In this document: in pieces, positions 9,601 through 46,866 of the stretch | Layout of the letters: each line of letters starts with the position of its first letter | Numbering within the stretch: position 1 is the first letter of the stretch | Source: Squalus acanthias | Lineage: Eukaryota | Assembly (NCBI GenBank): GCA_030390025.1 | Contig: CM059431.1 | Span: 108,006,001 to 108,070,000 of the forward strand | DNA: 64,000 nucleotides | Direction of reading: 5' to 3' | Notes under the pieces: generated by a model | The model's input: only the letters and a program-made list of their open reading frames with translations | Database searches by the model: none | What the model was told of the DNA's origin: nothing | Position numbers and translations under genes: made by a program

Positions 9601-9724
9601 TTGAATAGCTTTTGCTCTATCTCTTTCTTCTCTTTCGCGCTGCCTCTTAAATAATTTTCACGTATCAAACAAGGGCTAAGAGATGTGATTAATTTAGACT
9701 CTCTTAACTTTGCATGGCTTATTG

Positions 9725-10148
9725 GATAGCACTATCACCTCTGACTCAGGAGGTTGTGGGTTCAAGTCCCACTCCAGAGACTTGAGCACAAAAATCCAGG
9801 CTGACACTCCCAGTGCAGTACTGAGGGAGTGCTGCACTGTCGGAGGTGCCGTCTTTCAGATGAGATGCTAAACCGAGGCCCCATCTGCTCTCTCAAGTGG
9901 ATGTAAAAAATCCCATGGCACTATTTCAAAGATGAGCAGGGGAGCTATCCCCTGTGTCTTGGTCAATATTTATCCCTCAACCAACATAACAAAAAAAAAC
10001 AGATTATCTGGTCATTATTACATTGCTGTTTGTGGGAGCTTGCTGTGCGCAAATTGGCTGCCACGTTTTCTACATTACAACAATAACTACACTTCAAAAG
10101 TACTTAATTGGCTCTAAAGCACTTTGGGACATCCTGAAATCTTTCTTT
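9725..10148 (+). mobile_element. DeuSINE (SacSINE1-like)
   Basis: Same body as 43728-44199. Confidence 0.85.
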
Positions 10149-12380: not shown

Positions 12381-13089
12381 TAGGCACATTTCAAAATTCA
12401 AATAGTTACACGAAAACCACGAAGTAACACATACGCTTTTATATATCTATCCAAATTCAATGAAAGCAAATAACACTTAATCAAAATTCTCTAATCAGCA
12501 ATGTTTTAAAACTCATACAACACATAATCTAGCCTGACACTTAGGTGCAGCACTGAGGGAGTACTGCATTGTCAGAGGTATTGGGTTGGAGAAATTCGAG
12601 TGTAAAGCGCCACACGTTAGTTCCACAAGATGGCGCTAGAACAGCGTTCAGAGCTCTACCGCCAGCTAATGGGGGTCCCAGCGCTGCACGCCATATCCGC
12701 CTTGCCAGCAATGCTGCTGATAAACTCAATCGCCAGGGACATCGCAATCACGGAGATCATGGCGTCAGTGAGTGTGCAACGCTCACTTGACGCCCGATCT
12801 CCCAACTTTGTTTTGGCCACTGAACTTACCAGCTGGAGAAAGCAACGAAAGGTTGAGGTGCCGTGCAGCAGCAGAAATCCGGCTCGAGCAATGCTATTAT
12901 AAGGAATCCTCACCAATCACACGTACCTGACAGGGTTTTGAAGTTTGAGTGGCTGTGTGCTAATTCCTGCTACTGCAAGAGTTTTCTTCCATCATTTCAA
13001 GGTTATTTGGTATCAGGGAGTGTTCTGGCAAGTAAAAAACTCCCTCATTATTTTTGAAATGCTTCAAAGTACAACACTTGCTAAAAGTC

Positions 13090-14243
13090 ATGGGGGCTGT
13101 ACTTGCAGTCAACCTCGCCCTCCAGGATCTATGGCGGAGGGAGCGAAGGCTGCAAGAAAGATGGGAACATGTGTGCAGAGGGAGGAGGAGGGCCATCAGG
13201 GCTTGCAACAGGAGGTCTTATCCTCAGAGGGTCTTCTGACAGCACTTCTCCTACCTTCAATTAAACGAGGAGTAGTGTATTAGGAGGTTTCACTTCACCA
13301 AGGAGGTGGTCACAGAACTCTGCCACCTTCTGCAACCAGACCTCCAGCCTCAGACCAGGGTGACCACGGCTCTCCCAGTGGCAGTCAAGTTCACCGTCAC
13401 CCTCAATTTCTTCGCCAATGGATCCTTCCAGTCTGCAACAGGAGACATAGCTAACATCTCCCAGTTCGCTGTCCATCGCTGCATCCGGGAGGTCACTGAG
13501 GCGCTCGACAGTAGGAGAAGGGACTACATTGGCTTCCCGATCACCAGAGAGAATCAGGACGAGTGTGCATGTGGCTTTGCCAGATAGCGGGATTCCCCAT
13601 GGTGCAGGGCATCATTAACTGCATCCATGTGGCTTTGCGGGAACTGAATAACAATCCTGAGATCTTCCGTAATCGCAAAGGCTAACATTCACTTAATGTG
13701 CAGTTGGTGTGTGACTACACACAGCGAATTCTCAATGTTAATGTTATCCTGGCAGCAGCCACAATGCCTTCATCCTGTGCCAAACCAGTGTGCCAGCACT
13801 CTTCCAGCCACCACGTCAAGGTCGAGGGTGGCTGCTCGGAGACAAGGGCTATCTGCTCTCCACCTGGCTCAGGACTCCCCTCCGCAATCTCAACACTTAT
13901 GCCCAGCATTCATATAATGAGAGCAATGCTGCCACCATGAACATCATCAAGCAGACCATTGGCCTACTGAAGCAATGGTTCCGTTGTCTCAACCACTCGG
14001 GAGGAGCCCTCCAGTACTCTCCAGAGCAGGTGTCCCATTTTGTGGTGGTCTGCTGTATGCTCCACAACTTGGCCATCACGAGGGCTCAGCCCTTGCCACC
14101 ATGGATTGTGGGACCACCTCAGGATGAGGAGGTGGAGGACGAGTAGGGAGAGGAACAGGAGGGAGGGAGGAGGCAGCCAGACAATCGGGCTTCCGGACGG
14201 GTGGTCCATGACTGGCTCATCAGACTCCGATTCGAATGAATGA
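13090..14243 (+). pseudogene. Harbinger (HARBI1-like) DDE transposase, disrupted
   Basis: LNFFANGSFQ..GD...ISQ, GFPMVQG, HSLNVQLVCD, WLLGDKGY, IGLLKQWFRCL, CCMLHN motifs; several stops and frameshifts. Confidence 0.92.
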
Positions 14244-14402
14244 AACCCCAGATCCCTGTTGCTCACCACATCCCCATCATACCATCCCTGTCGCAGGCCA
14301 TATTACAGTGCAAAGCTGAAATGAGAGACACCACAAAAGATTCCAAACACAATTCATAAATTCATCTATACACATATCGCACATATTCATAAACACTATT
14401 AA

Positions 14403-16262
14403 CTAATCACCCTTGTGCAATCCCTTAGTGCCTTTTCCTACTCTAGTGCTCCTACGCAGTGCACCCCTAGTGGCTACAGCACGGCTGGTGGAATGCTTCT
14501 GAGTTTGCATGCGGGAGCCTTCAGATGGCCTTGCACGATGACCTCGACCAGCTCTGGATCTAGAAGGCCTGGCTGTAGAACGCACCACCTCGGCATGTGC
14601 GGCAGCAGTCTGGGCTGGCTGGCTGTCAGGCAGCGACAAGGGCAATGGCAGAGGGCCAGTGGTGAGAGCAGGAATGCTCTCAGCCTGAGAGAGAACTGCA
14701 GGTTCCTGCTCCACTGACCCACTGCCACCCCCCAGGGCAGCACCTCAGCATCCCTAGCAATCTGTTGAAGCACAGATTGCTGGCCTGCTGCGACACCGTG
14801 AAAGCCCTGGTCGACGGTGGTAGACCCAGCCATGATGGCAGCAGTCAGCGCTTGCGTGGCATCACGCTGAGACTGCATGAGAGCAGTTTGAGCTTCCGCT
14901 ACAGCACTAAGACGTGGGTCGCTTCTGTCTGTGCTGCAGTGGAAGCTGCAACGTCACTCATCATGCATGCCATGACATCTGGGTCGCCACGGTCTCTCTG
15001 GGAGTCTACCATCATTTGTAGACTGGAAATGATGGGCTCCTTGCTCTGCGCAGAGCCTTGTGCCATGTTGGAGGCAGACTCCTCCTCGCTCCTTGCCATT
15101 GCCGAGAAGCTCTCGGGCACCCTTACCATTGCACCTATCATCTCCATGTGCATGCCTATCACCCTTCTTCTAAAGGCCTGCCCATCGAGGTCCTCATCTC
15201 AGTCCGGTGCAGCAGAACTCACGTGCGAACTCACCCTCCGGGGAGCTGGCCCCCAAGCTACCCTTTCCTGCTGATCTTGCTGCAGCCCGCTCTTACACAG
15301 TGCCTCACCCTGTGCAGATCCCGCTACTATACTAGCCTCTAAAGAACGGGTAGTGCCAGTATCTGAGCTGGTGTCTGCGGGTGAGACATGCAGTGATGCG
15401 GTGTGTTCTTCGTTCTCCTCTTCTCCCGCCTCGCTCTCTACGGTGCCCTCAGGGACAGGCTGCTCAGGTGCTTGCTGATTATCTGAAAGCATAAAGGCAC
15501 AAGAGTTGGGTTAAGGTGAGGGGAGGGGGGGCAGGAAGGGAGAAATGCATGCATATAGTATGATTAGCTTGAAAGTGGGAAAAGATTGTGGGCTGAGGGG
15601 GAAGTGGGATGTGAGAAGGAGTAGTAGGAATGAACATACCATTGTTGTCCCCAAGGGGGTCAACGTCGCCGGTGGCCACGGTGCCCACGACCTGGTGCCC
15701 AATGATCTCCAGCACTCGGCCCTCCAGCTGGCTCAGCTGTTCAATATGGGCTTGGCCCCCGCCTGTCCGCTCCTGCTTCCTCTGGTTGTGAGCCACCTTG
15801 GCCTGCAAGAGAAAGGAAAGTGTGTGATGCAATGTGTTTGGGCGATGTGCCTGCCATAGTTGAATAGCTGTCATTGTGTGCAAGATGTGAGATGTGGGTG
15901 TGAGTGTTGCTAGGTAGAGATTGTTGGTGGGTGAGTGCTGGGGGTGTGGTGCACTGAGCAGTGTGTGAAGACTGTGGTGCAGATGGTGGTTTGTAGCATT
16001 TGTTGAAGCCTTCACTCACCCTGACCACCCGTGTGAGGTCGTTAAACTTCCTCCTGCACTGGGTGTGGGTCCTGGGGACCACAGTGCTGCCCGTCACTTG
16101 TTGTGCCACCTCCCGCCACATAGTACGGGACACTTGTGGCGAGGGCCTCATGCTGGTTGGCGGGTACAGGACCGCCTGCCTTCTCTCGACCGCGAAAACC
16201 AAAGCCTCTATAGCTTCATCGGAGAACCTCCGGGCTCTCTCCCTGGGGCAACGATCTGTCAT
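14403..16262 (-). pseudogene. Myb/SANT-like DNA-binding gene of the Harbinger element; exons 16262-16020, 15802-15640, 15482-~14403
   Basis: RARRFSDEAIEALV...WREVAQQV...RTHTQCRRKFNDL; GTgagt, cAG, GTatgt, cAG splice sites keep frame (AKVAHNQRKQERTGGG, then DNQQAPEQ); exon 3 has stops and frameshifts. Confidence 0.85.
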
Positions 16263-17186
16263 TAGGATTTGTTAGTAACTGATCCTTCTGCTTCTTCTTC
16301 CTGTTAGGATTGTTGGGGCAGCTGCACACTCAACAATGATGAGAATGAGGTGCTGCAGCATCAATAAACCTCCCCTTTAAGTAGTGAAAAATGCCTGTGG
16401 CAATCATGAGTTGCAATTAGATTGCCCCCGATATTGGTCCAGTTTTTCAGTGTAACGCCAATGAGCTTGGGTTTTTAGACTAGAATCATGACTGCAATCA
16501 TTTTAATGAGGAGTGAGCACGAATTTTCAGGTGCCGCTACTGAACCATTTTTAGTCTAAACACTCCCCATTTCTTGGCTATAACGAATTTCTAGCCCATT
16601 AGATGAGACATTTAACCGAGGCCCAATCTGTTTGTTTAGATGGATGTAAAAGATTCAGCCGCACTATTAAATGAAGAGCAGATGTTTCCCGGTGTCCTGG
16701 CCAACACTTGCCTCTCAATCAAAACCTCCAAAAACAGGTTAACTGGTCACTTATCTCATTGCTGGATGCAAATTTCTGCGATGTTTGACTACAAAACCAC
16801 AGTGACTACACTTCAAAAGCAATTCACTGGCTGTGAAGTTCTTTGGGACATCCTGAGGACAGGAAAGGCATTTCATAAATTCAAGTGCTTTCTTTCTTAC
16901 ACTGTCAAGGCAGAACACACACCAGTGAGGGTTACATATTAAAAGAATCCATCATATCACTGCTGATATGATCTACGCAAGAGATATTACTCCATTTTTT
17001 AAAAACCATTTCCAACTACGTGCCCTAGAAGGAAATTCTGATTTAATTTATATTATGTTACTGATGTAACGTCAAGTTCAGTTGACTCCCAAATATACAC
17101 AAGCTTTCTAGGATTTTGATTACGAACATACGACCAATGATGGACAGAAAATAATCCTTTGGTCCATCCAGCCTGTTCCACACAAT

Positions 17187-20646: not shown

Positions 20647-21365
20647 ACCACCGCCCCTTAACATTCAATGGCATTACCATCGCCGAATCCCCCACCATCA
20701 ATATCCTGGGGGTCACCATTGACCAGAAACTTAACTGGACCAGCCACATAAATACTGTAGCAACAAGAGCAGGTCAGAGGCTGGGTATTCTGCGGCGAGT
20801 GTCTCACCTCCTGACTCCCCAAAGCCTTTCCACCATCTACAAGGCACAAGTAAGGAGTGTGATGGAATACTCTCCACTTGCCTGGATGAGTGCAGCTCCA
20901 ACACTCAAGAAGCTCGACACCATCCAAGACAAAGTAGCCCGCTTGACTGGCACCCCATCCACCACCTTAAACATTCACTCCCTCCACCACCGGCGCACCG
21001 TGACTGCAGTGTGTACCATCTACAAGAAGCAGTGCAGCAACTCGCCAAGGCTTCTTCGGCAGAACCTCCCAAACCCGTGACCTCTACCACCTAGAAGGAC
21101 ATGGGCAGCAGGCCCATGGGAACACCACCACCTCCAAGTTTCCCTCCAAGTCACACACCATCCTGACTTGGAAGTTTATTGCCGTTCCTTCATCGTCACT
21201 GGGTCAAAATCCTGGAACTCCCTCCCTAACAGCACTGTGGGAGTACCTTCACCACATGGACTGCAGCGGTTCAAGGTGGCGGCTCATCACCACCTTCGCA
21301 AGGGCAACTAGGGATGGGCAATAAATGCCGGCCTTGCCAGCGACGCCCACATCCCATGAACGAAT
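20647..21365 (+). mobile_element. Non-LTR retrotransposon 3' fragment (RT thumb and C-terminus; CR1/L2-related clade, not resolved)
   Basis: ILGVTIDQKLNWTSHI...LGILRR...IYKAQVRSVMEYSPLAW; aataaa-containing tail then A-rich end. Confidence 0.85.
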
Positions 21366-21662
21366 ATATAAAAAAAAATTGATGCAATCTCTGGCAGGCA
21401 CAGTGTGAAACTGCCTTAAGGGATTTGTCCCAAATTGAAATACTGTTACAGCACAATGAAGCTGAAAATAAGAAGCATTGTCTATCTCTGCTTTTGACTA
21501 CAAAACGCTGGCAGACTCTGTTGAACTGCAGGGTTCCAAAAGTACTGTGAAGGTAAAATATTCCTTCAGAGTGATTGTTGAAAATTCTTTTGTTCAGGTG
21601 ACCTTATTGAGTCACAGTCATTGTCAAATCCCCTTCCCTCATAACCCCCTATGTCGGTGTTC

Positions 21663-22781
21663 ACAGTGTGCAGTTCAATACATATAAATAGGCATTTGAA
21701 CTGTTTGCTTTTTCCGCACGGCTCTCTAAGTATAAGTTACAGCGAAGTATAACTTCAGAATTTGAAAGCTGTTTGTAAATATACCAATTGATTATCCACA
21801 GTGATCCCCATGGATAAAATGGGTGGATTTATAATAATGTAGCTTAAGTTGTAAAATAATTTTTCAAACAGAATTTATCATCATCAATTGTGGTGAGTGA
21901 CTTTCCCGAGATATTAATCCTGATGGTGGGTGGTATTGGTGACGTACAGAGGCAGCATGAAGGACCGTCTGCCAGGTTACTTATGGATGTCAGTTTTCCA
22001 CCTGTGCAGCCTATTCACTACCACCCATTTTGACACTTGACAAAGTCGAATCCCCCCCCCCAGTGGCTGTTAGATTCAGACACATATCTCAGGTTTCTGA
22101 CTCGGAGGCCAGAGTGCTGCCACTGAGCCATAGCTGACACCTGACACAGAGGCACACCGAAAACATTAACCTTTCCATTTTTTCAAATGTTCATCGGTCT
22201 GCAGTGCCTCTCTGAATTTCTTGTTCTTTTTTTTCCATTTTAGCAAAATCTTGTGTTTCATTCACAAACAGTTCTCTAGTATTATAGTCGCCACTGGTTT
22301 CTGAACCTACTTGATGATATTAAAGGTGTAGCTAAAAATTCTGTGGGTTTTATTTGCTTAGACAAAGGCTCCAATATTTACCCAGGGCATGAGTGCGTCG
22401 TGCGGGTACCGGGGTAGGCGGGAAGGACCCATGACGAAACAGTCATGAGGCCGGACCCATTTTCACTCGTGGACCTTCATCCAGGATGGACTTCCGCCTG
22501 AACCCGACGGGAATGACACAGAAGCCAGTGGGCGGGAGTGGGAATTCACGAGGCAGAAGACCGCCTCCAGGGACCCAAGGAAAATATCCCTGGCAAGTAC
22601 TGAGGGGTGCTGTCCAGAGGCGGTGGCGGCTGGGCGTAGAGGGAGGGAGGCCCGGGATAAGGTAGAGATGAGGTTTCCTTGTGGGGATCTGTAGGACCAT
22701 TCTTGCTCCTCCAGGCACTCGAGGTAAACAGAAAATGAAAAGTTAAACAAGCCTGGGTCTCGTCTGGCTACGATCCCATAG
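21663..22781 (+). repeat. Copy 1 of ~1.1-kb direct duplication
   Basis: Collinear with 29660-30762 from acagtgtgcagttc to gatccc(g)atag. Confidence 0.95.
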
Positions 22782-23589
22782 TCTCTTGGATACGTTAGGG
22801 GTCCCGGGGGCTCAAGCGATGATCAGAATAGTACAGAGTGATGAGAAAAGTTACTCTGAGATTTGGGGCGATATAATATCCCAGGTCCTTGCAAAGAAAA
22901 TCAAATTTAAAGAGGCCGGATGTAAACTGACTTAGGTAACCCACCTCTGTGCCAAGCGTGGAGACTTCAGAGACGAACAGGCGAGAGAGGAGAAGCACAA
23001 AGAGCAGGAGAGACAGTGGGAGATAAAGAGGGCAAAAGATCTAAGTTGCAGGCTAACCAATCTGAAAACTCAGCAAAGGAAGGAAAAAAACAGAGGTCTG
23101 GGGAGCCAGGAAAAGCTGCTGAGACTACAGTTTATGAGGCGAAAAAAAATAAACTTAAAGTTGAAACCGACACTGAGGCTATCAGCTTTTGTGCCGAGAA
23201 AAATAAAACACAAGATTACTGAGTGAAAGGAACCTTGAAAAATGCTGGAATTTCAGTTTGGGTGAAAGTGTGTGTTAAAGCGTATAAGTTTTCCTGACTA
23301 TGAATGTTTAAGAAGTTACAGTATTCCTTTTGTCTGAAAGTCTGTCTTTAAAAGAAAGTGTCTGTTATGTTTGTTTTAGCTCCACCCACTTTTCTGTGCT
23401 TAGAGAGAAAAGCCATTTAACCCATTGTAGTCTTGTCTTGGATGTTGGAAGTTTTAAGAAAGAGTGAATATGTTGAGTACATTCATTTCAATTTAAGATT
23501 GTGCACCTAGAAGTGGGGAAAACTTTGTGATCTACATTTTAAGCTAAAGGCGCTGCTGTGGATATATTTTGACTGGGACGGCTTGTACA

Positions 23590-24675
23590 GCAAACTAAAT
23601 GTGCTGGCCAGGAGTGTTGGGGTTGCAGAGGGGAGTCATGAGCCAGGTGGAGAGCGGATAGCCCTTGTCTCCCAGCAGCCAGCCGCCAGCTTGATGTGGT
23701 GGCTGGAATAGAGCTGGCATACTGGTCTGGCACAGGATGAAGGCATCGTGGCTCTGCCAGTATAGCGGGCATTGACGGTCAGGATTCGCTGTGTGTGGTC
23801 GCACACCAACTGTACATTAAGTGAGTGGTAGCCTTTGCAGTTACAGAAAACCTCAGGATTGGTTTGAGGTGCCCGCAAAGTGACGTGGGTGCAGTCAATG
23901 GCGCCCTGCACCATGAGGAAGCCCGCTATCCTGGAAAAGCCACATGCACAGGACTGCCACTGAGAGAGCCGTGGTGGTCCTGATCTGAGGATAGAGGTCT
24001 GGCTGCAGGAGTTGGCAGAGCTCTGTGACCATGTCCTTGCTGAAGCGGAACCTTCCAACACACTGGTCCTCAGTGAAATTCATGTAGGAGAACTGCTGCC
24101 GGAATAGCCTAGGTGGGTAAGGCCTCCTGTTGAGAGCCCTGTTGGCCTTCCTCCCTCTGGCCACATTTTGTATCTTTCTCTGTGCCTCAGTTGCCTCCGA
24201 CATTGACGCTGGAGGGTGAGGTCGAGTGCCAGTACAGCCCCCGTGAAAGGATCCAAATCTTGCATTTTCAATTCTCCCCTCAATGAAACTGAAGAAATGC
24301 GAAATGCTCAAATTGGTCAAAAGGCCTCTTTGCCGATGTGAAACTAACGACGCAGCATTGTTGGCCGACAAAAACTAAACCGGATGTGGACGCCTTTAAA
24401 TAGCGCTCCTCCAGGGGACATCCGACTGAAAGCCGCCTCCTCTACCTGTCGTTGTTAACGGCAGGCGCACAAGCAGGGGCGAGGGGGAATTTTTCATCCG
24501 GGGCACTGCGCACGGCAATGGCGTCACGATCTCCGGGCACAGGAGATCAGGGCGCAATGTCTTACCGCCGCCGCAAAACATCCGGCGAATCTAGAGGGAG
24601 GCGTTGATATCGCCGCGCCCGGTCGCAAACCCGGAGGCACTAACGGGAGGCGCAAAGGAACCCAATTTCTAGCTC
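23590..24675 (-). mobile_element. Truncated Harbinger (one TIR plus disrupted transposase)
   Basis: GFLMVQGAIDCTHV, KGYHSLNVQLVCD, WLLGDKGYPL; terminus aatttctagctc. Confidence 0.85.
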
Positions 24676-25008
24676 TTGGAGTTTAATCTAAAATGAGAAT
24701 GTTTTATTTAAAGTTAATAATGATAGCTTTACTAATGATTTCTGCTGTTTTAATGGATTTTTTAATTCCTAAGAAAGTTTTGAAGGTACAAAGACTTTGA
24801 AAAAGAACCAAGAACCAATTTATTGTCTTTTCCGATCGGGAAAGTTTTTTTTTAAATTTACGTGAAGTGATGCAATTGCGTGCGTCTGTCAATATTTGCT
24901 CCACCTTTTTATAAACCTGCAAAGGAGTTAATCCTTTCTGCTGACAGGCTTTTTTTTAAGTTCGCCAAGCAACAACTTTAGTATTGCTGAATGAAATTTA
25001 AAGATATT

Positions 25009-25889
25009 GGGGGGAAAATTCAGTATCGCCCCGTTTGGGACGCCATTATTGGCCGTGCGCAAAGTTTAGCGCCTGGCGCTAATTATCGCCTCCGACTGCA
25101 AACTTGACTTTTATCGCCCCTGGAGTTGATTAGAGCGCTAAATCAGGTGCTACACATCTGTCTTAAGGCGCTAACACCGAGGAGCAAGGCGCTACCTCAG
25201 AGCGCTGGCGAACCTAATGTGATGTCAGTCAGCAATGGAACATAGACACACTGGCGCCAGCCAGTTCTTAAAGGGGAGGGTCGAGCTTGCTCTACATCCA
25301 CACCCTGCTCATTGCAGCCTTGAATCTCGGCCTGGAGAAAACTGTACATCAAATCTGTTGGAAAGAACAATGGAGAGGCCCAGGGAAAGAGCTCAGACTG
25401 CAGCCCCCATATTCTCTTCTAAATCAATGCAAGGAAGATCAAACCAGAAATAACCTGCAAAGTGCTGCTCAGTACCCAAAACTCCTCAACACAGCTTTGA
25501 ATATCTCCTGCAGTCTCTCTCTCTCACTCAGAATGCGTGGAGCAAAAATTTCACCGACAAAAATAGGCAGGAAGCGGTCGCCTTTAAATAGCACTCCCCC
25601 AGTCCCTTCCTGACTGCAAAACGCTCCCCTCAACCTGTCGTTGCTAGCTGCAGGCGGTAAGACAGGGGGCGCCACTCAATATCTGGTCCGGGGCATTGCA
25701 CTCTCGACTGACGTCACGATCGGCCAGCGCAGGAGATCGTGGCGGTAGTGTTTAGCGCCGCCGCAAAATGTCTAGTTAATTTCATGAGTGGCGCAAAGAT
25801 CGCCGCGCACGGGCGCTAGTTGTTTTGCACCCCATTAGCGCCCTTTTAAGGCGCTAACGAGAGGCGCAATCCAACTGAATTTTTCCCCC
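25009..25889. mobile_element. Harbinger-type MITE
   Basis: TIR ggggggaaaattcag / ctgaatttttccccc; ATT duplicated. Confidence 0.85.
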
Positions 25890-26894
25890 ATTGGACGTTA
25901 TTAAATTTAAGTTTCTTAATTTTAAGTGAATATTTCCCCACAGTAATAGAAGGAAAATTAGGTTTTGACAAATTAACCCCTTGGGCTCTTAAGCCTGGTT
26001 TCTTTTATTATATGGAAGTTACCTTGGAAACTAATTGCAAGTACTTCTGTCTCTCATGTTAAACCACCATTAGAAACTATCAAGCCTGTTTCTGAAATTG
26101 GAATTGATAAGATAAACTGATAAAAATAAAATTGATATGAGTTGTTGTTTCAAGCGCTCGAGAAGGGAAAATCTAACTGAAGTTCAAGGGGATAGCCAAA
26201 TTTTCATTAAAAGAAACTGGTTGAGAACAGTCGAGGTGGTTTCTGGAAGAACGTTTGTGGGGAAATAAAACTGAACATTGACAAAACCGGTCAGTCCAAC
26301 AATACTGCTGTTGGGATTTGGGATAAGTTTGAAATGATAAAATGGACTCGGGCACAATATAGTGGGTATTAAAGAATTTAAAAAATGTGTAAATAACTTG
26401 GACCAAGTGGGAACGTTTGATCTATGTTTTCTCTTTTTAATATTGTATTGGACAGTAAAGTTCCTCCAGGGCTCATGAGTGAGATATGGATTGTAATTAA
26501 TGGGATGCCTCACTTACAATGCAGATAGAAACAGGAAATGTTACTATATGTTTCATTATACCACCAAATGGGAATAATTTTTCTTAGCTGAATTAGAGTA
26601 AATCACCTGGGTGCAATTCACCAAAAGGTATCAATCTGGTATTAATGTACATTCTTGTGAAAGTCAGGAAAGTGTAGTTAAGAATAGTAAATTGACAGCT
26701 TTCTCTTGGAAAGGTTTGTGTCCTTGCCGATGAACTTTTTAAGAAAACTGTATTTGATAGCCTGACCACTACCCAAGACATCGGGACCATGCAGAGGGAG
26801 ATGAGCAAAGATCTCCAGACAATCTTTTGATGAGATCACGTGAAAGCCCAAGAATGGCTTGTATCGGATGGCACGTGTGGCATATTGGGATACC

Positions 26895-26895
<1 letters not shown>

Positions 26896-26934
<39 letters not shown>
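26896..26934. repeat. (GT)n microsatellite
   Basis: Perfect dinucleotide run. Confidence 0.98.
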
Positions 26935-26937
<3 letters not shown>

Positions 26938-27639
26938 TGGGATTTGTTACTTGTGAAGTAATTAGCATGCAGAAATGCATAGTGCATTTGCACTGAAGAA
27001 CGGCTCTCAGGCATACTCAGTTACTCGAGAACAGCACGACATGAAATGGTTAATGTGGCTCAGGAGAGTGAGACAACTTTTACAGCATTGACACATACGC
27101 CATCGAGAAACTATCTAATTTATGGAACAATCAGAATAGAGATACACATGGTACCTGTCAGAGGGATTAAAATTTAAGTAAAAAGAATTTGGATTGGGAC
27201 AATTGAGGCTAGGGAGAAATAAATTTAGCAAAAATTATACACAAGATGGATGCGAATAAAAGAGATCTGGAGAAACCTTTAAATCCATGAATTGTTGATT
27301 AGATGTTAATACCTTGTAAAGAAAACTACAGTTTATGATTTTCTTTGTCTGCATCATTGTCTCTTGAAATGTATGTACTTAGTCGACATGCTAATGATTG
27401 ATTGTAAAACTGAATTATAACTGTGACTGTAATAATTGTGTTTTGTAGGTAACAGTGTGTGGGAAAAGCCAGTACGAATCCAGTATCAGGTGGTTTTGGT
27501 GGTGCCTCCTGTGTGAAGCATGGGGACTGTCAGCTGCACTGACTAATGCGAATAAGGTGACACAGTGGGATTGGGAACCAAAAGTGGTGGGAGACGGAGT
27601 GAGTCGGAAGGAGGAGACAAGCTCCTACTAGATCTCTAG

Positions 27640-28342
27640 TCTGAACATCCACGAGGGATTCTTCTTTAGGATGTGCAATGTTACCCGGTCTGTGGTGACA
27701 ACGCACTGATTGAGGAAGGAACCAGAGTGTGTATAAAATGATCAGGGGAAAGGAACCTACTGTGTCACTACTACCGCAACTAATATGCTTTACAGGTCTA
27801 ACAGGACCTGACCATTAATAGTCCCAGTTTCTGCTTCACGCCATATCTACCCACAACCATCAACCGACACGTTTTACTCGATATCAAAATCCTATGCTCA
27901 AGTGACACTGACAGTAAATGAGAAACTTAAGTATGAGCTGCACAATTATGTGGCACAATTTGGGTACGACACTCCGCTGTTGTCTGAGGACTTCAGTGAG
28001 CTCATTATGCGACTGAACTCCTCCCTAAAGCATTTTTATGTTTTGGAGTAAGACAACTCGAGAATAGATATTGAAATTGACAGCATAGGGAACGATTCAC
28101 ACTGGTGGAATATCAGACTTAATATATCGGCACACCCTTGGGTTCGTATTATTTCACACGCTCTTGTAGTATTCCAGCTTGTAATGGTCGTGTATTTGAT
28201 GTATGTAACCCGCTTAGTAAAAACTATGTTAAGGAGGCTCGACTCTGGAAGGGCCTTAAATAAAATAAAGAGAACCCTTCTCCACTGGCGCATCAGCCAA
28301 TTGTGTGCTTATGCCTATGACCAACCAGCACTAACAAATTAA
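27640..28342 (+). pseudogene. Retroviral env-like C-terminal remnant (Cys-rich segment, heptad, WW, transmembrane anchor, tail)
   Basis: GKGTYCVTTT...SPSFCFTP, then LSEDFSELIMRLNSSLKHFYVLE*DNSRIDIEIDSIGNDSHWWNI...WVRIISHALVVFQLVMVVYLMYVTRLVK; stop at 28340-28342; lies just upstream of PPT/LTR. Confidence 0.65.
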
Positions 28343-28685
28343 TTGAGCACTCCGAAAGAGAAGATCCGAGACGAAGTAGAGGAGACCCCAGGCAGGGTAA
28401 GATCAGGAAAGATAGAAGAAACAGAGGATACCCCAGGCGGGGCAGAATTGGAACACCGGAACAGCGAACTGAATTTGAGTGAGGGGTCGGAGGAATGCTC
28501 CTCCCCCTCAAGTGTGTGGACTGTAAGAATACTGGGAAAGTCTCCACTTCGCATTCACTTACTAACTACCCTGAAATAGACACACCGATTGAACCGTCAA
28601 AGCAATAATCTACAGTTGGCACGGTTGGTAGAGGGCCGAACACGAGAGGTCGAATAGAGTTTTCTCCCTCTCAAGGTGGGGAGTC

Positions 28686-29429
28686 TGTTAGAAATTAGGG
28701 GCACCTAAAAAATATATGGTTATGTGAATGAAATTGTGACGCAAATAATACTGTGTTTAGATGATTGTATGAGAGCTTGAGATAAAAGTGTCTTCAGACT
28801 AGTATTAGAATAGTTGGATAGATGCTTAAAATTTGCCTATGTTTTCGATTCCCTGCAGATGTTATAACATTCCACACAGTCACATATGACCTTGCTTCCC
28901 AGGCTAGCTGTCTGCTATTCATGTGCTCGGAAGGCTACTGACTGTATCTTTAATTTGGCCAACCAACGCCCAACGCCTATGTTTCTTCCATTACCGCTAA
29001 TAACCATATTATAATGCTAAGTTAAGATTTTGACTTTGTTTAACAAAACCGCTTGCTAAAATGCATAAGTTAACCGGTGTGTGAGAATAGAATAGATACC
29101 CTCGTAGTTTGGGGAATTTAATGATTCATTCCAATATACAATAGTCTGATAATGGAATGAAATAGTTTGTTTGCACAGCAAAGCTGCATGAGCAGCTTTG
29201 AACATAAATAACTGATAACAAGCAGCTATGAATATCAGAAGGATGAGAATGGTATGTCTGACTCCACACTTGGGAGGACAGGGCCGGATGAGATAAGGGG
29301 AAAACAGTCCTTAGCATATTCTACCCCAGGTCCACCCCTAAAAAAAGAGTATAAAAGAAAGACCTGAAAAGCCTCCAGCGCAGATGGTGGATCTATGCTG
29401 ACTTTGGTCTAACACTCTTGGGCAGTTCA

Positions 29430-29472
<43 letters not shown>

Positions 29473-29659
29473 TATTTGCGCACGCCAGCCGTCTGTCCGA
29501 TCGGGGCCGGTCCTCGCCACTTGTCACGGTCGTATGTTTTTGCTGTATAACTAGTGTGTTATATTCCACCTTAAACTATGATTAAACATAATATACCCAC
29601 CATATTGGCTGCAGTTGATCCTGATTATTCGAAGGACCAGAGATAAGCTAATCCCAACA
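28686..29659 (+). mobile_element. 3' LTR (974 bp)
   Basis: TGTTAGAAATTAG...CTAATCCCAACA imperfect inverted ends, preceded by PPT; TATAAAA at 29350; ATTAAA at 29581. Confidence 0.85.
29432..29467. repeat. (GA)n microsatellite within LTR
   Basis: Perfect dinucleotide run. Confidence 0.98.
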
Positions 29660-30762
29660 ACAGTGTGCAGTTCGATACACATAAATAGGCATTTAAACTG
29701 TTTGCTTTTTCGCACGGCTCTCTAAGTATAAGTTACAGCGAAGTATAACTTCAGAATTTGAAAGCTGTTTGTAAATATACCAATTGATTATCCACAGTGA
29801 TCCCCATGGATAAAATGGGTGGGTTTATAATAATGTAGCTTAAGTTGTAAAATAATTTTTCAAACAAAATTTATCATCATCAATTGTGGTGAGTGACTTT
29901 CCTGAGATATTAATCCTGATGGTGAGTGGTATTGGTGACGTACAGAGGCAGCATGAAGGACCGTCTGCCAGGTTACTTATGGATGTCAGTTTTCCACCTG
30001 TGCAGCCTATTCACTACCACCCATTTTGACACTTGACAAAGTCGAATTTCACCGCCCAGTGGCTGTTAGATTCAGACACATATCTCAGGTTTTTGACTCG
30101 GAGGCCAGAGTGCTGCCACTGAGCCATGGATGACACCTGACACAGAGGCACACCGAAAACATTAAACTTTCCATTCTTTCAAACGTTCATCGGTCTGCAG
30201 TGCCTCTCTGAATTTCTTGTTCTTTTTTTTTCATTTTGGCAAAATCTTGTGTTTCATTCAAAAACAGTTCTCTAGTATTATAGTCGCCACTGGTTTCTGA
30301 ACCTACTTGATGATATTAAAGACGTAGCTAAACATTCTGTGGGTTTTTATTTCCTTAGACAAAGGCCCCAGTTTTTACCCAGGGCGTGAGTGCGTGGTGC
30401 GGGAAGCGCCCATGATGAAACAGTCATGAGGCCGGGCCCATTTTCACTCGTGGACCATCATCCAGGATGGACTTCTGCCCGAACCCGACGGGAATGACAC
30501 GGAAGCCGGTGGGCGGGAGAGGGAATTCACGAGGCAGAAGACCGCCTCCAGGGACCCAAGTAAAAGATCCCTGGCAAGTACTGAGGGGTGCTGTCCAGAG
30601 GCGGTGGCGGCTGGGCGTAGAGGGAGGGAAGTCCGGGATAAGGTAGAGACGAGGTTTCCTTGTGGGGCCTGGAGAACCATTCTTGCTCCTCCAGGCACTC
30701 GAGATAACCAGAAAATGAAAAGTTAAAGTAGCCTGGGCCTCTTCTGGCTATGATCCCGATAG
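29660..30762 (+). repeat. Copy 2 of ~1.1-kb direct duplication
   Basis: Begins at the base immediately after the LTR CA; collinear with 21663-22781. Confidence 0.95.
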
Positions 30763-31194
30763 ACGGCAAATTTCCCTGGCAGCTCCGCCAATGGACTTCA
30801 CTGCCAGAATCAGCAGTTAAAATCGCGCCGGGGTCCAAATCAATGTACCCCCAATTGTTTTTTTGTTTTTTTTTGAGTGCGCTGCCCCTTTTAAGGGGCT
30901 GCACGGCCCATTCATAGTTTCACGCATGCGCGAAACGCAACATTGTAAAAGCCGGCAGAGAGCCGCGTGGCCGCGCAGCGTAGAGGGAACGTTGGTCAGA
31001 ATGACATCACCATATCCCGATATTTAAATAAGATCGAGGCTCCCCGACTGCCAACGACTGGCGGCTGTGACGCTGCTAAATACCCGGCAGTTAAAATGGC
31101 GGCTGGCGCAAATGCATCCGGAACGCAGCAGGACCGCCATTTTAACCAGCTGCCCACACCATTCCCGTCAGGCGGGCAGAGTTAAAATTGGCCC
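30364..31194. mobile_element. MITE (complete here; only its first ~400 bp present in duplication copy 1)
   Basis: Ends ggccccagttttta / ttaaaattggccc; GC-rich body. Confidence 0.7.
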
Positions 31195-31671
31195 TATTTA
31201 ATGATTCCGTTTGGTTTTCTCAATGCTGTGACCAATAGGGTTACATCCTGTAGGGTAGCCCACAGTAGACTCCTTTTGAATTTTAAATGTTAATCTTAGG
31301 ACCATGCTCAGAATAATGGCCTGGGCATTTCTCTCTTTGCATTAGATATACAATGTAATGCTCCAAGTAGGTTTGTCAATGTTTTGGTGAAATGGTGGAA
31401 GGACACTACTGACAGAAGAATTCCTATATATTATCTGAATTTGTCTCACTCATATTAGTCAATAATATTCGCACTTATCCTTTGCATTACGCCTCCACAT
31501 TGATGAATAGCACTGTGAAACATTTATTAACCTTTCTCATGCTTTGTTGGGCTAGCTGATTTCATTAGTGTTAAGTCAGCAGAACAAACATACAGGACAC
31601 AATTCAACTCTTACTCGAACATTTTTAAAGAAACCAGCAAAGCATTTTGGGGCGAAATGACTCTATAAAGG

Positions 31672-31938
31672 AAGAAAGATTTGCATTCCTATAGCGCCTT
31701 TCATGACCTCAGGACATCCCCCCAAGGCACTCTTACAGCCAATGAAGTACTTTAGAAGGGCAGTCACTGTTGTCATGTAGGAAACATGCCAGACAATTTG
31801 TAGTATGGGTTGAGGGATAAATTTTGGCCAGGACACCGGGGAGAACTCCCCTGCTCTTCTTCGAAATAGTGCCATGGGATTTTTTACGCCCGCCTCAGGA
31901 GGACAGACGGGGCCTCGGTTTAACGTCTCATCCAAAAG
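31672..31938 (-). mobile_element. DeuSINE fragment
   Basis: Reverse complement of SINE 3' half with an internal deletion. Confidence 0.75.
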
Positions 31939-32683
31939 ATGTATATTAAGATACAAACGTGCTTCGATGAAATTCCTCCGGTCACTATTTTAAACGCAGT
32001 TGTTAACCTGTTTAACATTAATGCACTCGTATGCTAATATCCCATTTGGACACACATGATTCGAACTATAGCTATGCAGTTCATCCATAATTTTGGTAAT
32101 GTTCTTATTGCCTCTTCCATATGCCAATGCCGAGATGAGTAGCCCATTACCTCGACAGGCTGCTCTCCAGTAAGTTACACGCTTTTCCCGTTTGCTTTCA
32201 CTTTTTGCTTCTTTGTCCCATCAATTCACCTTCTCCCACTGTCCTTGGTAAATATTTTTAATACATCTTTTGTCAGGATTTCATTTATATTCATTAAATC
32301 TACCATCAGTTCAGAAGTGATTCTAATGCATTATTCATTTCTCTATAAACCAGTGAACAGCTGAATACTACATTCATAATCAACTTTATGAATACACATC
32401 AAAATTGCAGCATAATATAATAGTTTACAGAAGAAAGGATGCAATAAGGTTTGATTCACAATAGCATCTCATCTTTATAAGATTATTTTTGCCTCTGCTC
32501 AGCGGTGGGCAATAGATATTCCGGCCGTGCTGCTTTCAGATCCCTTCTTACATTTTATCTATTAAGCTCGGTCTCTGTTTATCGGTCTTTAACCAAGTTA
32601 TTGACTATTTGACTTGATGTATGAGAAACAAGTAAGTTTTAAAGACAGAAGTTGCTGTTGGTGATACAAGCAGGTACACATCA

Positions 32684-33419
32684 GGGTCGGGAGTTTCCGC
32701 TCGATTGCGCTGTTTTATTCGGCGCAATTCGCCCGATACGGCCGTAACCGGCGCCAAAGATCATGGAATTTTAAGCACAAATTGCATTCAGCGCAACTCA
32801 AATTTCCACGCTCTTTTGCGCTAGATTTAAAAACATCGCGCTAGAAGCAGGCCCCGTCCACAAAACTGGCCCCGCCCCCAGGGTGAATTAATCACCATTG
32901 GGAGTTTCCGCTAATTGCGCTCAATTGCGGGCCTTCGAGGAGGCTGCAAAAATTAAGCTGGATCTTTTGGGCACAAGGACTCTAGCAAGTACGTTTTGAA
33001 AGGATTTGAATTATTTTTTTTTTAAATTTACTAAAGGAACTCACTATTGTACGCCAATCTAACTAGAAAATAGTTTTGTATATTTTTAAAAAGTCATTTT
33101 CAGTGATTTAAAATCGGGTCACTCACAGGTGGTGGATTTAAAATGCTTATTTTAAGTGATTAATACAGTTGAAAATGGGTTTATCAATTTTTACCAAGTT
33201 ACCACTCTTAAACATATATCGGAGAATATTTTTTAAAGCAAATGTATTTTTAAAAAATTACGTTTTGAAACACTGTCCATTTGCACTAGTGCATGGCAGG
33301 TTTTGCATTCGGCGATGTGCAAATGAGTTTGAGCAGAACTCGGGCAGAAACAGCACTTTGCAGAACGGATGCAACTTGTGCCAGAATCGCCGATTGAGCC
33401 CAAAGCGGAAACTCTACCC
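32684..33419 (+). mobile_element. MITE family C, copy 1
   Basis: TIR gggtcgggagtttccgc / gcggaaactctaccc; collinear with 62022-62744. Confidence 0.8.
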
Positions 33420-33665
33420 GTTAATGGGTTTTGATGACATTCCCCCTGTCCACTGTAAGCGTTTCAGTTCAAATAGCAGTCAGAGGAACGTTATCCGAAC
33501 ATGTTCGGATCTTTCACAGCACCGGCACCTTCACAACGGGCCGAATGGCCTCCTTCTGTGCTGCATGATTCTTTGTTAAGTATTCATCCACCAATGCTGC
33601 CGACAGTCATTTCTGACCTTTAATTACCAACATTCTACCTTTCAAAACTGCACCGAAAGGCGTAC

Positions 33666-33852
33666 CTTTATTAGCATCCATCCCTCCAACTGCATACAGA
33701 GCTCCAACAGTAGACTTCCGAGGCCGAGTCCTTGGACTCTGCATTAAAGGTCGTCTCTCTGGTAACAGATGGTACTTCATGGCTTCAAGAATGAGTTTCT
33801 GGCACTCCAGGTCATCCTTGAAGAGAGCGTTATTTTCAAGGTCTGCCAATAG
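33666..33852 (-). CDS. klhl1: Next internal coding exon (187 nt, phase 0/1) of kelch-like protein 1, end of BACK domain and start of kelch repeat 1
   Basis: Translates [62 protein letters not shown](G); acceptor ttttacAG 33853-33854, donor GTacg 33665-33661; joins in frame to the 49-kb exon. Confidence 0.9.
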
Positions 33853-34199
33853 CTGTAAAACAATAAATAAATAAATTAAATTCAGGTAACTGATTTCTAC
33901 ATTTGCTAGTAACTGCTCATAAAGTATACACACAATAGTGGGTACTGTGGAAGGCTGTAATTCAATCGAGCGGTTTTGATGAAATCGTAAAGGAAAGCAG
34001 GGTTCAAATGGTTTATCAATGTCAATAGAACTTCAAGGTTAAATTTTAGGCTTGTAACTTTCTCTACGGCAGATTTTATTTTCTATAACGTACATTGTGT
34101 TTCTGAAGTGCAATATTTTAATTGTTGATGCATATCATTATACTGCGCTGCTGAAGTGATTGTGAATTGCCAGCAGATTGATAAAAAAAAGCTGAGAGA

Positions 34200-35460
34200 A
34201 GGGAGAATCGTTATGGATTCAAATCTGCCAGAAATACCATCTCAGTTTTAAGGGCGTCAGTTGCTCCCTTAAGCGGTCTGAGCATCTTACTTTTATTGGA
34301 GTGGTCTCAGACTGCCCTATATCTACTTGTATGATGGCTCAATCCAGGGATAGCATCTCCTTACGATCTGGACAGGACACTCGCGTCTTCTGCACCTGTG
34401 TTTCTTCCATCTCTACGAAGGTAGATCAGATATGAACAGAGCCAGTTACAGTGCCATCTCATGACGCAATACACAGAAGCAGAGAGCCAAATCAATCTCA
34501 AAGACACCCACCGACACCCACCAGCCTTCCAGCTCACCTACTCCTGCCACTGGGGGCAGCACCTCGAAAGAGCACTAGGGTTAGGCTCCACATCACCAAG
34601 GCCAAGCAACAAATGCTAGGCACACACACCACTCAATTATAGAGTATTTAATTTGGTTGCAGTTCATTTCAACTGTTTCAGGAGAGTTTTCATGGTACAG
34701 TGTAAAATAAGATATTAATGGATGAAAGGAGTGGGAGTCATGATAGCTGAGTTAGTGCAGAAGCCTATGTTGGTGAGAGAGCCTTTGGCCATTGCATTAT
34801 GTACATGTTGAGGACTGTGAGTGCATTAGGTGTATAAGGGCATTTAGATGAAGGTCTCATTAATGAGATCCTGCTGTATGGCTCTTGTTGCCTGCAAAGA
34901 TGGCTTAGCAGGAATATCTTCTGCCTCCTCAACTTTGTCTTGCTCTGCTCTTGGCTGTGGTTAGGTGTCCTCTTCCTCTCTTGCTATGTATTTATGCCTC
35001 TTTTGCATGGCAACGTTTTGAAGTATGCAGCAGACTACAATGGCTTCAGAGATCCTGGTGGTGGTTATTGTAAGATAGCCTCTGATCTGTCCTGCAGCAG
35101 AAGCTCCAGTTCAAGATGCCTGCAGTGTGTTCAATAATGAATGTGTGGGCCTTGTATCTGTTTGCTGCTGTTCATGGTTGTCTCAGAGGTGTCGGGGCCT
35201 AAAGCTGAAAAGGGGAGCCTAGGTCACCGAAGAGCCACCCTTGCAAATTTCTTTCCCCATCAAGTCATTGTGGAAAGGTGGATTGTCTTAAAATGAAAGC
35301 ATCATGACTGCTGCCTTAGAAGCAGACATTAACTTGTTTTACTAGTCATAGACAATCTGCATGTGGATGAATCGGAAGTCCTCGCATTTCATGAATGGGA
35401 TGAGACTGTGCGTAATATGCCTGTGTGGCCATTAGTGAAAATAATGCCCTGGACTTTAAG
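34200..35460. mobile_element. Highly degenerate Harbinger remnant
   Basis: gcagcacctcgaaagagcactagggttagg resembles the Myb-gene 3' end near 14450; minus-strand HSLN-like segment near 34800; boundaries approximate. Confidence 0.4.
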
Positions 35461-40900: not shown

Positions 40901-41082
40901 AATATTTTGAGTCGCTGAAATAGGAAGTGGACAACAATGCTTAACTTACTTTGATTATTTTTCTCTTATTTCTAATTGTAATTTGTATGTATCATTCTGT
41001 TTTTTGCCAATATTTGATTATGTTTTGTGCTTTGTGCTTTGAATACTGTACTGTGTATGTGCTGTTAGAACCATAGTCGGAT

Positions 41083-41827
41083 GGGCCAGAAATTCAACTT
41101 TCAGGCTTCCTGCGGGTGCAAGCATCGCACGCGTACTTGCCCACCGCGCCTGCAGTTGTGCTTCGGGTCCTGGGCCTCCTCCAGCTGCCGGCGTGCAGTG
41201 CTTGTGTATCCCAGGGGCGCAGTTAGTTCGAAGCGTCCCCTGGGATCACGTGGGCCATGGAGAGCCAATCCTAGCAGGGCATTTTCATTCATAGATTTGA
41301 CAGGAAGACCTGTCAAATCTATGAATAGAGATCGGCCCCAAAACCACACTTAAACTTCAAATATTTTTTTTTTTTATCACATTTTTAAAATAACTATAAG
41401 TTACATAAATTAACTACTTTAAACAAAAATTTAAATTTTTGAAAAAATTAATTATACTTTTTAACGGTGCTAAAAATAAACTTACCTTTCTTTAAAGTAT
41501 CTAAAAAAGATAAACCTGTTGAAAAAATGTTTAAATTGTAATTAATTAACCACTTACCTTGTTAAAAACAGGCCTTGCGCCTCCTTTTTAAAAGTGCAGC
41601 TTCTTCATACTTACCTTCCCGGAGAAACCGGAAAAAAAACCTGAAGTTCGCTGCGTGCGCGCAGCCTCTCCCGCGCACGCGTTCAACTTCTGAACCCCTC
41701 CCTTCAGGGGAACGGAAGTTTCGGTTTCCCGTGCATGCACAGTGCATGCAGAAAACCGACACTTCAGGTGGCCTTACGGGTGAGTACACAGCGCGTACTC
41801 ACCCGACAACAGACGAATTTCTGGCCC
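41083..41827 (+). mobile_element. MITE family A, copy 1
   Basis: TIR gggccagaaattc / gaatttctggccc; GAT duplicated. Confidence 0.92.
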
Positions 41828-46817: not shown

Positions 46818-46866
46818 TTGTTTCATCATCAGTCTTGCTCGCATTTTATCTGAGCAAAGAAACATT

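What the first reader, a model, noticed from the sequence alone, without database searches (positions are those of the whole stretch)
21663..30762. One-LTR provirus flanked by a ~1.1-kb host duplication instead of a short TSD
Seen: the LTR ends cleanly in CA at 29659 and the next 1.1 kb repeats 21663-22781. The upstream copy has no LTR in front of it (an empty site) and ends abruptly inside a MITE, where it joins presumed viral interior lacking 5' LTR and PBS. A simple tandem duplication of a provirus-bearing chromosome would leave an LTR before copy 1, and there is none. Inference: either a germline one-ended integration (integrase joined one end, host repair joined the other; known experimentally to give large host duplications and viral end deletions) or an unequal junction between empty and filled alleles. 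The copies have diverged by several percent, more in the CpG-rich MITE part, which gives a clock for the event.
Basis: partly seen in the sequence, partly recalled or inferred. Interest (0 to 1): 0.72.

Follow-up and report, generated by a model that had tools for sequence, protein, structure and literature searches.

The report
One-LTR provirus with kilobase host duplication
A dead retrovirus in a shark-type genome has lost one end and sits between two copies of 1.1 kb of host DNA, the scar expected from a botched, one-ended integration, a pattern already known at smaller size from human endogenous retroviruses.

Summary
The structure is real. Host segment 21663-22781 recurs at 29660-30762 (53 substitutions in 1101 sites), directly after a 974-nt 3' LTR (28686-29659) ending in CA. 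No LTR precedes copy 1. Public contigs of one sample bridge the odd junction 22781/22782 with no mismatch. The interior is a multi-copy family with an env-like remnant; the duplicated segment is low-copy host DNA. The LTR/copy-2 join was not tested with reads. Best reading (0.55): one-ended germline integration, with integrase joining the U5 end and host repair joining a truncated other end. Three post-insertion or pre-duplication routes give the same anatomy and are not excluded. The kind is known: truncated HERV-K proviruses with 111- and 450-bp duplications, and HIV/XMRV aberrant integrants in culture. This case is longer and in a cartilaginous-fish-type genome. It may be a provirus-free allele, either never occupied or restored by recombination between the repeats.

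The parts
21377..21662 (.). Unique host flank upstream of copy 1 (X); no LTR sequence
   Evidence: No other match in the window; continuous with copy 1 in contigs of two samples (records 1, 9, 17)
21663..22781 (+). Host duplication, copy 1 (A1); holds a short SINE-like piece near 22095-22140 and the left part of a TIR-bounded element from about 22367
   Evidence: one contig per run at the listed sites 21784-22058 (table 3)
22782..22789 (+). 8 nt assigned neither to the host repeat nor to other family copies; possible repair filler or simply diverged viral sequence
   Evidence: Two other family copies start aligning at 22790 (records 5, 14); weak likeness of the junction to 22757-22772, reached by 3.9% of 5000 random 18-mers, post hoc
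22790..23597 (+). 5'-most surviving proviral interior, multi-copy family; 5' LTR and whatever lay between it and this point are absent
   Evidence: 7-35 contigs per run of organism A differ from the window at most listed sites (table 3); family pieces carry 128-134 further upstream letters that fit nowhere in the stretch laid (records 5, 14). No protein match
23601..24690 (-). Nested Harbinger-type transposon fragment, cut at 23601; right edge approximate
   Evidence: Pfam DDE_Tnp_4, E 1.5e-7; 77-83% match to another copy at 13088-13908; loose ends at 23601 in 3 of 4 runs (table 7)
25008..25890 (.). Nested high-copy MITE, absent from some other family copies
   Evidence: 17-nt inverted ends; joint 25005 to 25890 in runs X1, X3, X5 (table 5)
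27746..28273 (+). Broken env-like remnant, C-terminal part with membrane anchor; one stop near 28049 and a frame change between about 27810 and 27890
   Evidence: 11 hits with E up to 0.001, best 1.1e-13; 7 of 8 looked up are named cartilaginous-fish proteins, 1 unnamed; tblastn ranges
28673..28683 (+). Polypurine tract, 2 nt before the LTR
28686..29659 (+). Single 3' LTR, 974 nt, TG...CA, TATA box 29350, ATTAAA 29581
29660..30762 (+). Host duplication, copy 2 (A2), starting at the base after the LTR's CA
30763..31195 (.). Rest of the TIR-bounded element that is cut off in copy 1 (start of downstream host flank Y)
   Evidence: Inverted-end alignment; copy-2-type contigs run on past 22777 by 131-148 unaligned letters (records 4, 13)

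Best explanation
A germline one-ended integration. Integrase joined the U5 end of the viral DNA (CA at 29659) to the host at the start of segment A. The other end failed, lost the 5' LTR and adjoining sequence, primed host repair synthesis about 1.1 kb downstream, copied segment A and was joined back by recombination, giving X-A-truncated interior-LTR-A-Y. Shown: the anatomy, the junction in independent contigs, the host nature of A, the family nature of the interior. Inferred: that all of it arose in one event at insertion, and the repair pathway. The nested transposons, the microsatellite and the env breaks came from decay before or after; their order is not shown.
For: The repeat starts exactly at the LTR's CA, a terminus of 0.35% background frequency. 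The pre-insertion join X-A survives with no LTR trace. The other junction lies inside the viral interior with up to 8 unassigned nt. PMC5041404 (sections 10 and 12 read) reports this combination for aberrant HIV integrants: one normal end, the other often truncated, host most often duplicated by hundreds or thousands of bp. PMC2857682 (passages): 1 of 15 XMRV sites had a 273-bp duplication with a damaged U3 end. PMC5488345: 8 of 451 HML-2 sites have duplications over 10 bp, among them a one-LTR provirus. One event suffices where the rivals need two or three (inference). No listed contig shows X joined to an LTR; in run X1 the mean depth over 21360-21729 equals that of the single X-A contig (tables 2, 8).
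Against: Divergence between the copies should be even and is not (2.1%, 4.6%, 7.3%; p = 0.004). Ten listed pieces of other family copies differ from this one by 11.6%, more than the 4.8% between the repeats; the sample favours long, old copies, so this is weak. Microhomology at the junction could not be measured because the upstream letters of other copies were not shown. Only 32 of about 129,570 contig pieces and 24 of 4358 loose ends were listed, so the absence of an X-LTR allele is weak. The rivals give the same anatomy.
Confidence: 0.55

Rival explanations
1. Normal two-LTR insertion first. While it was heterozygous, a break was repaired by switching from an empty homologue (X-A) into the interior of the provirus on the filled homologue, giving X-A-interior-LTR-A-Y.
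For: Gives the same anatomy in one repair event after a normal insertion (inference). A provirus-free allele may still be present in sample S1 (records 1, 9). The low-depth run X6 is closer to copy 1 (4 of 382 differences, one cluster) than to copy 2 (9 of 382), as if copy 1 came from the empty pool; not significant, p = 0.26.
Against: Needs an inter-homologue switch without long homology, within about 1 kb of a heterozygous insertion. No X-LTR parent allele among the listed contigs of two samples (weak).
Confidence: 0.2
2. An older tandem duplication of host DNA; the virus integrated normally inside the second copy; a later deletion removed the end of copy 1's unit, the start of the second unit and the 5' LTR. 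The LTR then marks the start of the surviving repeat without any coincidence.
For: Proposed for HERV-K 6p25.2 in PMC5488345 (Discussion read). Explains a sharp boundary at CA and allows any divergence. This provirus has suffered other losses: no gag or pol match in six frames and a Harbinger fragment cut at 23601.
Against: Three events. No trace of a wider duplication in the window: X and 31200-31660 have no second copy.
Confidence: 0.12
3. Tandem duplication of interior-LTR-A on a normal filled chromosome, then a crossover with an empty chromosome inside copy 1 that removed the first provirus.
For: Each step is an ordinary kind of event; mosaic versions of A are hinted at in sample S1 (records 1, 2, 9).
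Against: Predicts low divergence between the copies near the junction and high divergence at the left; the opposite is seen.
Confidence: 0.06
4. Assembly artefact: two haplotypes mis-joined.
For: The LTR/copy-2 join and the order of parts over 9 kb were not tested with reads; no listed contig spans the stretch laid.
Against: The junction is bridged with 0 differences in two runs of one sample; a second sample has X-copy 1 (4 substitutions, 3 gaps in about 980 nt), 180 nt of this copy's interior with 0 differences, and copy-2-type letters at 22649-22728. That sample S1 may or may not be the assembled one is unknown.
Confidence: 0.04
5. The 1.1-kb repeats are the element's true LTRs or a dispersed repeat.
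For: Two direct repeats flank an env-bearing interior.
Against: A lacks TG...CA ends and a TSD; one contig per run at the listed unique sites of A against tens in the interior; other family copies stop aligning at 22790 and do not continue into A. A proper LTR with polypurine tract lies inside.
Confidence: 0.01

Closest known systems
HERV-K(HML-2) loci with long target-site duplications: 6p25.2 (one LTR, truncated, 111 bp), 21q21.1 (450 bp), 7p21.2 (solo LTR, 250 bp). PMC5488345, main text parts 1-3 of 4 read, supplements listed but not opened; PMC4422153, passages
   Same: Germline provirus, truncated at one end, flanked by a long direct host repeat; an apparently empty allele whose origin (never filled, or restored by recombination between the repeats) is open
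Aberrant one-ended integrants of HIV-1 under integrase inhibitors or mutant integrase (PMC5041404, sections 10 and 12 read), of XMRV (PMC2857682, passages) and of Rous sarcoma virus vectors (Oh et al. 2006, seen only as cited)
   Same: One normal CA end, one truncated end, host duplication of hundreds to thousands of bp
   Different: Those are somatic, in culture, mostly induced and observed at formation; here the event is inherited, old, and inferred from anatomy alone
Cartilaginous-fish endogenous retroviruses with an F-like Env; lokiretroviruses (PMC7947760, passages)
   Same: The env remnant matches shark and ray proteins; one 739-aa hit is named 'Ig-like domain-containing' and carries an RKRR site

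Membership tests
One-ended (aberrant) retroviral integrant | One end is a normal integrase junction (LTR ending in CA, directly on host DNA) | tested here: met
   LTR ends in CA at 29659 and the repeat starts at 29660; from the assembly only, not from reads
One-ended (aberrant) retroviral integrant | Other viral end truncated or abnormal | tested here: met
   No second LTR; family alignment begins at 22790 with 128-134 letters of other copies left over upstream
One-ended (aberrant) retroviral integrant | Long host duplication in place of the 4-6-bp TSD | tested here: met
   1119 and 1103 nt; low-copy host DNA
One-ended (aberrant) retroviral integrant | Short homology between viral end and appended host sequence | tested here: inconclusive
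   Upstream letters of other copies not shown; weak self-similarity, null fraction 0.039, post hoc
One-ended (aberrant) retroviral integrant | Duplication formed at integration: no two-LTR parent allele, single-copy A before insertion | tested here: inconclusive
   No X-LTR contig among the listed rows of two samples; listing is a small part of the whole. No genome or relatives held
Endogenous retrovirus | LTR with polypurine tract, TATA box and polyadenylation signal | tested here: met
Endogenous retrovirus | env-like gene upstream of the 3' LTR | tested here: met
   the hits are uncharacterised fish proteins, their retroviral nature rests on layout and on unchecked earlier notes
Endogenous retrovirus | gag and pol, retroviral RT | tested here: inconclusive
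   No Pfam match in six frames of 22782-28686 other than the Harbinger domain; no homologue of the 22783-23226 frame among 712 candidates. Lost or too decayed; an env-bearing LTR retrotransposon is not excluded
Lokiretrovirus | RT groups with lokiretroviruses | not testable with these tools
   No RT in this copy
Lokiretrovirus | Env similar to Mononegavirales fusion protein (PF00523) | tested here: inconclusive
   No PF00523 match for the remnant or 11 homologues; one weak Baculo_F match, E 0.0011, below cut-off; no F protein among PDB hits
MITE (element cut by the junction) | Terminal inverted repeats, TSD, high copy number | tested here: inconclusive
   Imperfect inverted ends; no matching TSD; low depth at 85% likeness. 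Old or low-copy

The most novel reading that the evidence does not exclude
The locus is still polymorphic, and the provirus-free allele in sample S1 is a revertant: recombination between the two 1.1-kb repeats removed the provirus without a scar. The S1 contig is copy-1-like at its first four diagnostic sites and copy-2-like at 21907 and 22052-22058, and its six unlisted differences equal in number the six copy-2 sites in 22060-22227. With 53 diagnostic sites, one phased long read could tell a never-filled allele from a restored one, which the human loci (0-3 mismatches) cannot.
Probability: 0.25. Interest if true: 0.6.

Novelty: new member of a known kind. Interest (0 to 1): 0.36.

Why it matters
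It would be a natural, inherited example of the kilobase host duplications that aberrant integration makes in cultured cells, longer than the 450 bp found in the HML-2 survey read here and outside mammals. Such loci escape searches for paired LTRs with short TSDs. Because the repeats have diverged, the locus makes an open question from the human cases directly testable: whether an empty allele beside a long duplication is the original or a product of scarless excision. It changes no general model.

Tried and rejected
No genome is held for this window, so no genome-wide count of copies, normal TSD length or primer-binding site could be had. Rfam: 1 match in the window, a tRNA-like piece at 9708-9780, none in the finding. 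Word-based protein search with the env remnant: 0 of 501 candidates; with the 22783-23226 frame: 0 of 712. PDB: 0 hits for the remnant; 9 weak hits for P0003, 6 of them antibody chains on its N-terminal part, best E 0.049. The protein atlas gave no result. Metagenome scan with an 18-nt LTR-end pattern: 11 loci, none shares more than 27 nt, chance. Viral contigs: 5 pattern matches, 0 confirmed. Earlier findings: nothing near, by sequence or in relatives. The terminus-chance test used a start off by one and was redone. A calendar date was rejected: at 7e-10 per site per generation (PMC10587355, passages) 2-5% means 15-36 million generations, from another species' rate and uneven divergence. Retroposition by a LINE was rejected because the element ends in U5-type sequence and CA, 70 nt past the polyadenylation signal, without a poly(A) tail. 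Literature: 9 searches listed no endogenous case above 450 bp or in fish; only titles and abstract starts were seen for most, and subscription papers are not covered.
Full report
Observation. The duplication is as described. Window 21663-22781 (A1) aligns to 29660-30762 (A2) at 93.4% over 1121 columns: 53 substitutions in 1101 ungapped sites, K2P 0.050, and six gap events, the largest 14+2 nt. The left edge is exact: 7 of the 8 bases before the two copies differ. A2 begins at the base after a 974-nt LTR, 28686-29659, which starts TG, ends CA, has 5 of 6 terminal bases inverted, a polypurine tract at 28673-28683, a TATA box at 29350 and ATTAAA at 29581. An end this good occurs at 221 of 63995 window positions. 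No other LTR copy is in the window, and none lies before A1.

The interior. Six-frame Pfam scanning of 22782-28686 found only a Harbinger-type DDE domain on the minus strand (E 1.5e-7); no gag or pol. A broken reading frame at 27746-28273 matches 11 protein clusters (best E 1.1e-13; ranges). Of 8 looked up, 7 are named proteins of sharks or a ray and 1 is unnamed. One is 739 aa, named Ig-like, with an RKRR site and a C-terminal hydrophobic stretch. I read this as an env remnant; an F-like fold, reported in unchecked earlier notes on this genome, was not shown here. Two transposons are nested in the interior: the Harbinger fragment from 23601 to about 24690 and a MITE at 25008-25890. A kelch-like exon lies at 33666-33852 on the minus strand (weak PDB kelch hits; the likeness to KLHL1/4/5 is recalled). 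The motif scan found no other exon, so the provirus probably lies antisense in a long intron (inference).

Independent sequence. No genome is held. A search with host DNA 29660-34200 listed 8 runs; 5 hold over half of the words, from 2 samples of one coded organism. I laid 4 of the 8 on 21360-26880 at 85% likeness. The output lists 32 of about 129,570 pieces, 40 of 573 variant sites, 15 of 201 joints and 24 of 4358 loose ends, so absences are weak. (1) The junction 22781/22782 is bridged with 0 differences by a 425-nt contig (X1) and a 431-nt contig (X3), both sample S1, which may or may not be the assembled animal. (2) Sample S2 has X joined to A1 (record 17: 4 substitutions, 3 gaps), 180 nt of this copy's interior with 0 differences, and A2-type letters at 22649-22728; its junction is not bridged in the listed rows. 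(3) At the listed unique sites of A one contig per run is laid, against 7-35 differing contigs at most listed interior sites: A is host DNA and the interior is a family. (4) Two other family copies align only from 22790 and carry 128-134 upstream letters that fit nowhere in the stretch, so the element does not extend into A, and 22782-22789 is unassigned. (5) A joint 25005 to 25890 in three runs shows family copies without the MITE. The LTR/A2 join lay outside the stretch and is untested.

A third version of A. In S1 the contig that joins X to A (records 1, 9) differs from the window at 18 of 868 sites, against 5 of 898 for the S1 pieces that belong to A1, the junction and this copy's interior (p = 0.006) and 4 of 1157 for the two S2 pieces (p = 0.0003). 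Of its 12 listed differences, 2 lie in X, 4 are found in neither window copy, and 6 are A2-like; at 6 other diagnostic positions it is A1-like. Seven of these sites lie at most 24 nt apart, so they are phased in a 31-mer graph. Over 21663-22059 it differs from A1 at 10 and from A2 at 9 of 397 sites, the copies from each other at 11. Contig depth ratios in S1 exceed what a homozygous filled animal would give in 6 of 6 comparisons (1.46, 1.36 against 1.20; 1.32, 1.19 against 1.02; 1.89 against 1.04; 1.30 against 1.01); the one ratio in S2 falls below (0.72 against 0.85). The two S1 runs are not independent, and the tool warns that depth is no copy number. I put about 0.6 on S1 carrying a provirus-free allele; a divergent filled allele or a graph chimera of A1 and a divergent A2 remains possible.

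Mechanism. PMC5041404 (sections 10 and 12) describes aberrant HIV integrants with one normal end, a truncated other end, and most often a host duplication of hundreds or thousands of bp. Its model: the free viral 3' end primes on nearby host DNA, and recombination completes the join. Applied here, integrase joined the U5 end at the start of A; the other end lost the 5' LTR, primed 1.1 kb downstream and copied A. This fits every junction in one event (0.55). The fit is shown; the single event is inferred. Three routes give the same picture. A repair switch from an empty to a normally filled homologue (0.20) predicts an X-LTR parent allele, not seen in the listed rows. An older tandem duplication with insertion and later deletion (0.12), proposed for HERV-K 6p25.2, predicts tandem A in provirus-free relatives. 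Tandem duplication on a filled chromosome followed by crossover with an empty one (0.06) predicts low divergence near the junction, the reverse of what is seen. Artefact is 0.04.

Results against the best reading. Divergence along the repeat is uneven: 7 of 337, 17 of 366, 29 of 398 (p = 0.004; non-CpG only p = 0.03), where one event predicts evenness; conversion, allele exchange or local rate must be added. Ten listed interior pieces of other copies in runs X1, X3, X5 differ from this one by 11.6% (pieces with 0-2 differences, Harbinger pieces and X6 rows left out), more than the repeats differ; long contigs favour old copies, and all but the fourth route also require the repeats to be at least as old as the insertion, so this does not separate them. 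The junction's likeness to 22757-22772, a possible templated filler, is reached by 3.9% of 5000 random 18-mers and was noticed after the fact.

The clock. A standing haplotype is as far from both copies as they are from each other in the LTR-proximal part, and the rate differs threefold along the repeat. A naive conversion gives 15-36 million generations and is not used.

Comparison with what is known. PMC5488345 (main text parts 1-3 of 4) lists 8 of 451 HML-2 sites with duplications over 10 bp, among them a one-LTR truncated provirus with 111 bp and a provirus with 450 bp; its scan stopped at 500 bp. PMC4422153 (passages) calls the 450-bp locus 3'-truncated and links such loci to aberrant integration. 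PMC2857682 (passages) found 1 of 15 XMRV sites with 273 bp. The supplements of PMC5488345 were listed but not opened; they hold the model figures and further TSD lengths. Nine literature searches listed no endogenous case above 450 bp or in fish; that covers open-licence papers only.

Verdict. A real, well-bounded structure of a known kind, larger than the published endogenous cases found here and in a new host group. Mechanism probable, not proven. The added value is the possible provirus-free allele, whose origin can be read from 53 diagnostic sites. Interest 0.36.

Noticed in passing
window 33666-33852 (minus strand): A 187-nt exon with AG/GT ends encoding the linker and start of a first kelch repeat; likeness to KLHL1/4/5 is recalled. 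No further kelch exon was found by a motif scan of the window, which suggests an intron of over 33 kb.
   Followed up: partly
window 22052-22058: Four clustered substitutions turn copy 1 into a run of ten C; shared by the window and sample S2, absent from copy 2, the S1 contig and run X6. Probably one mutational event.
   Followed up: partly
window 22783-23226: A frame with one internal stop in 147 codons starts right at the junction; could be a gag or leader remnant; no homologue found.
   Followed up: partly
window 28343-28579: An acidic 78-codon stretch in frame after the env stop, before the polypurine tract; possibly a long cytoplasmic tail or accessory remnant.
   Followed up: no
window 41082-41827, 46866-47630, 54363-55129: Three copies of a repeat; the first two are 93-98% alike and 5.8 kb apart, a possible second local duplication or a young transposon pair.
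   Followed up: no
window 12590-16600: A longer Harbinger-like element with a decayed transposase, 77-83% alike to the fragment nested in the provirus; edges by eye.
   Followed up: no
window 24365-24626 and 25554-25816: The two nested transposons share a 266-nt segment at 71% identity, and contigs join 24413 to 25603: related terminal regions of one transposon group.
   Followed up: no
run X6 on window 21657-21807 and 21971-22207: A run under another organism code is nearly identical to the window here (0 of 151 and 4 of 237 differences, depth about 2).
   Followed up: partly
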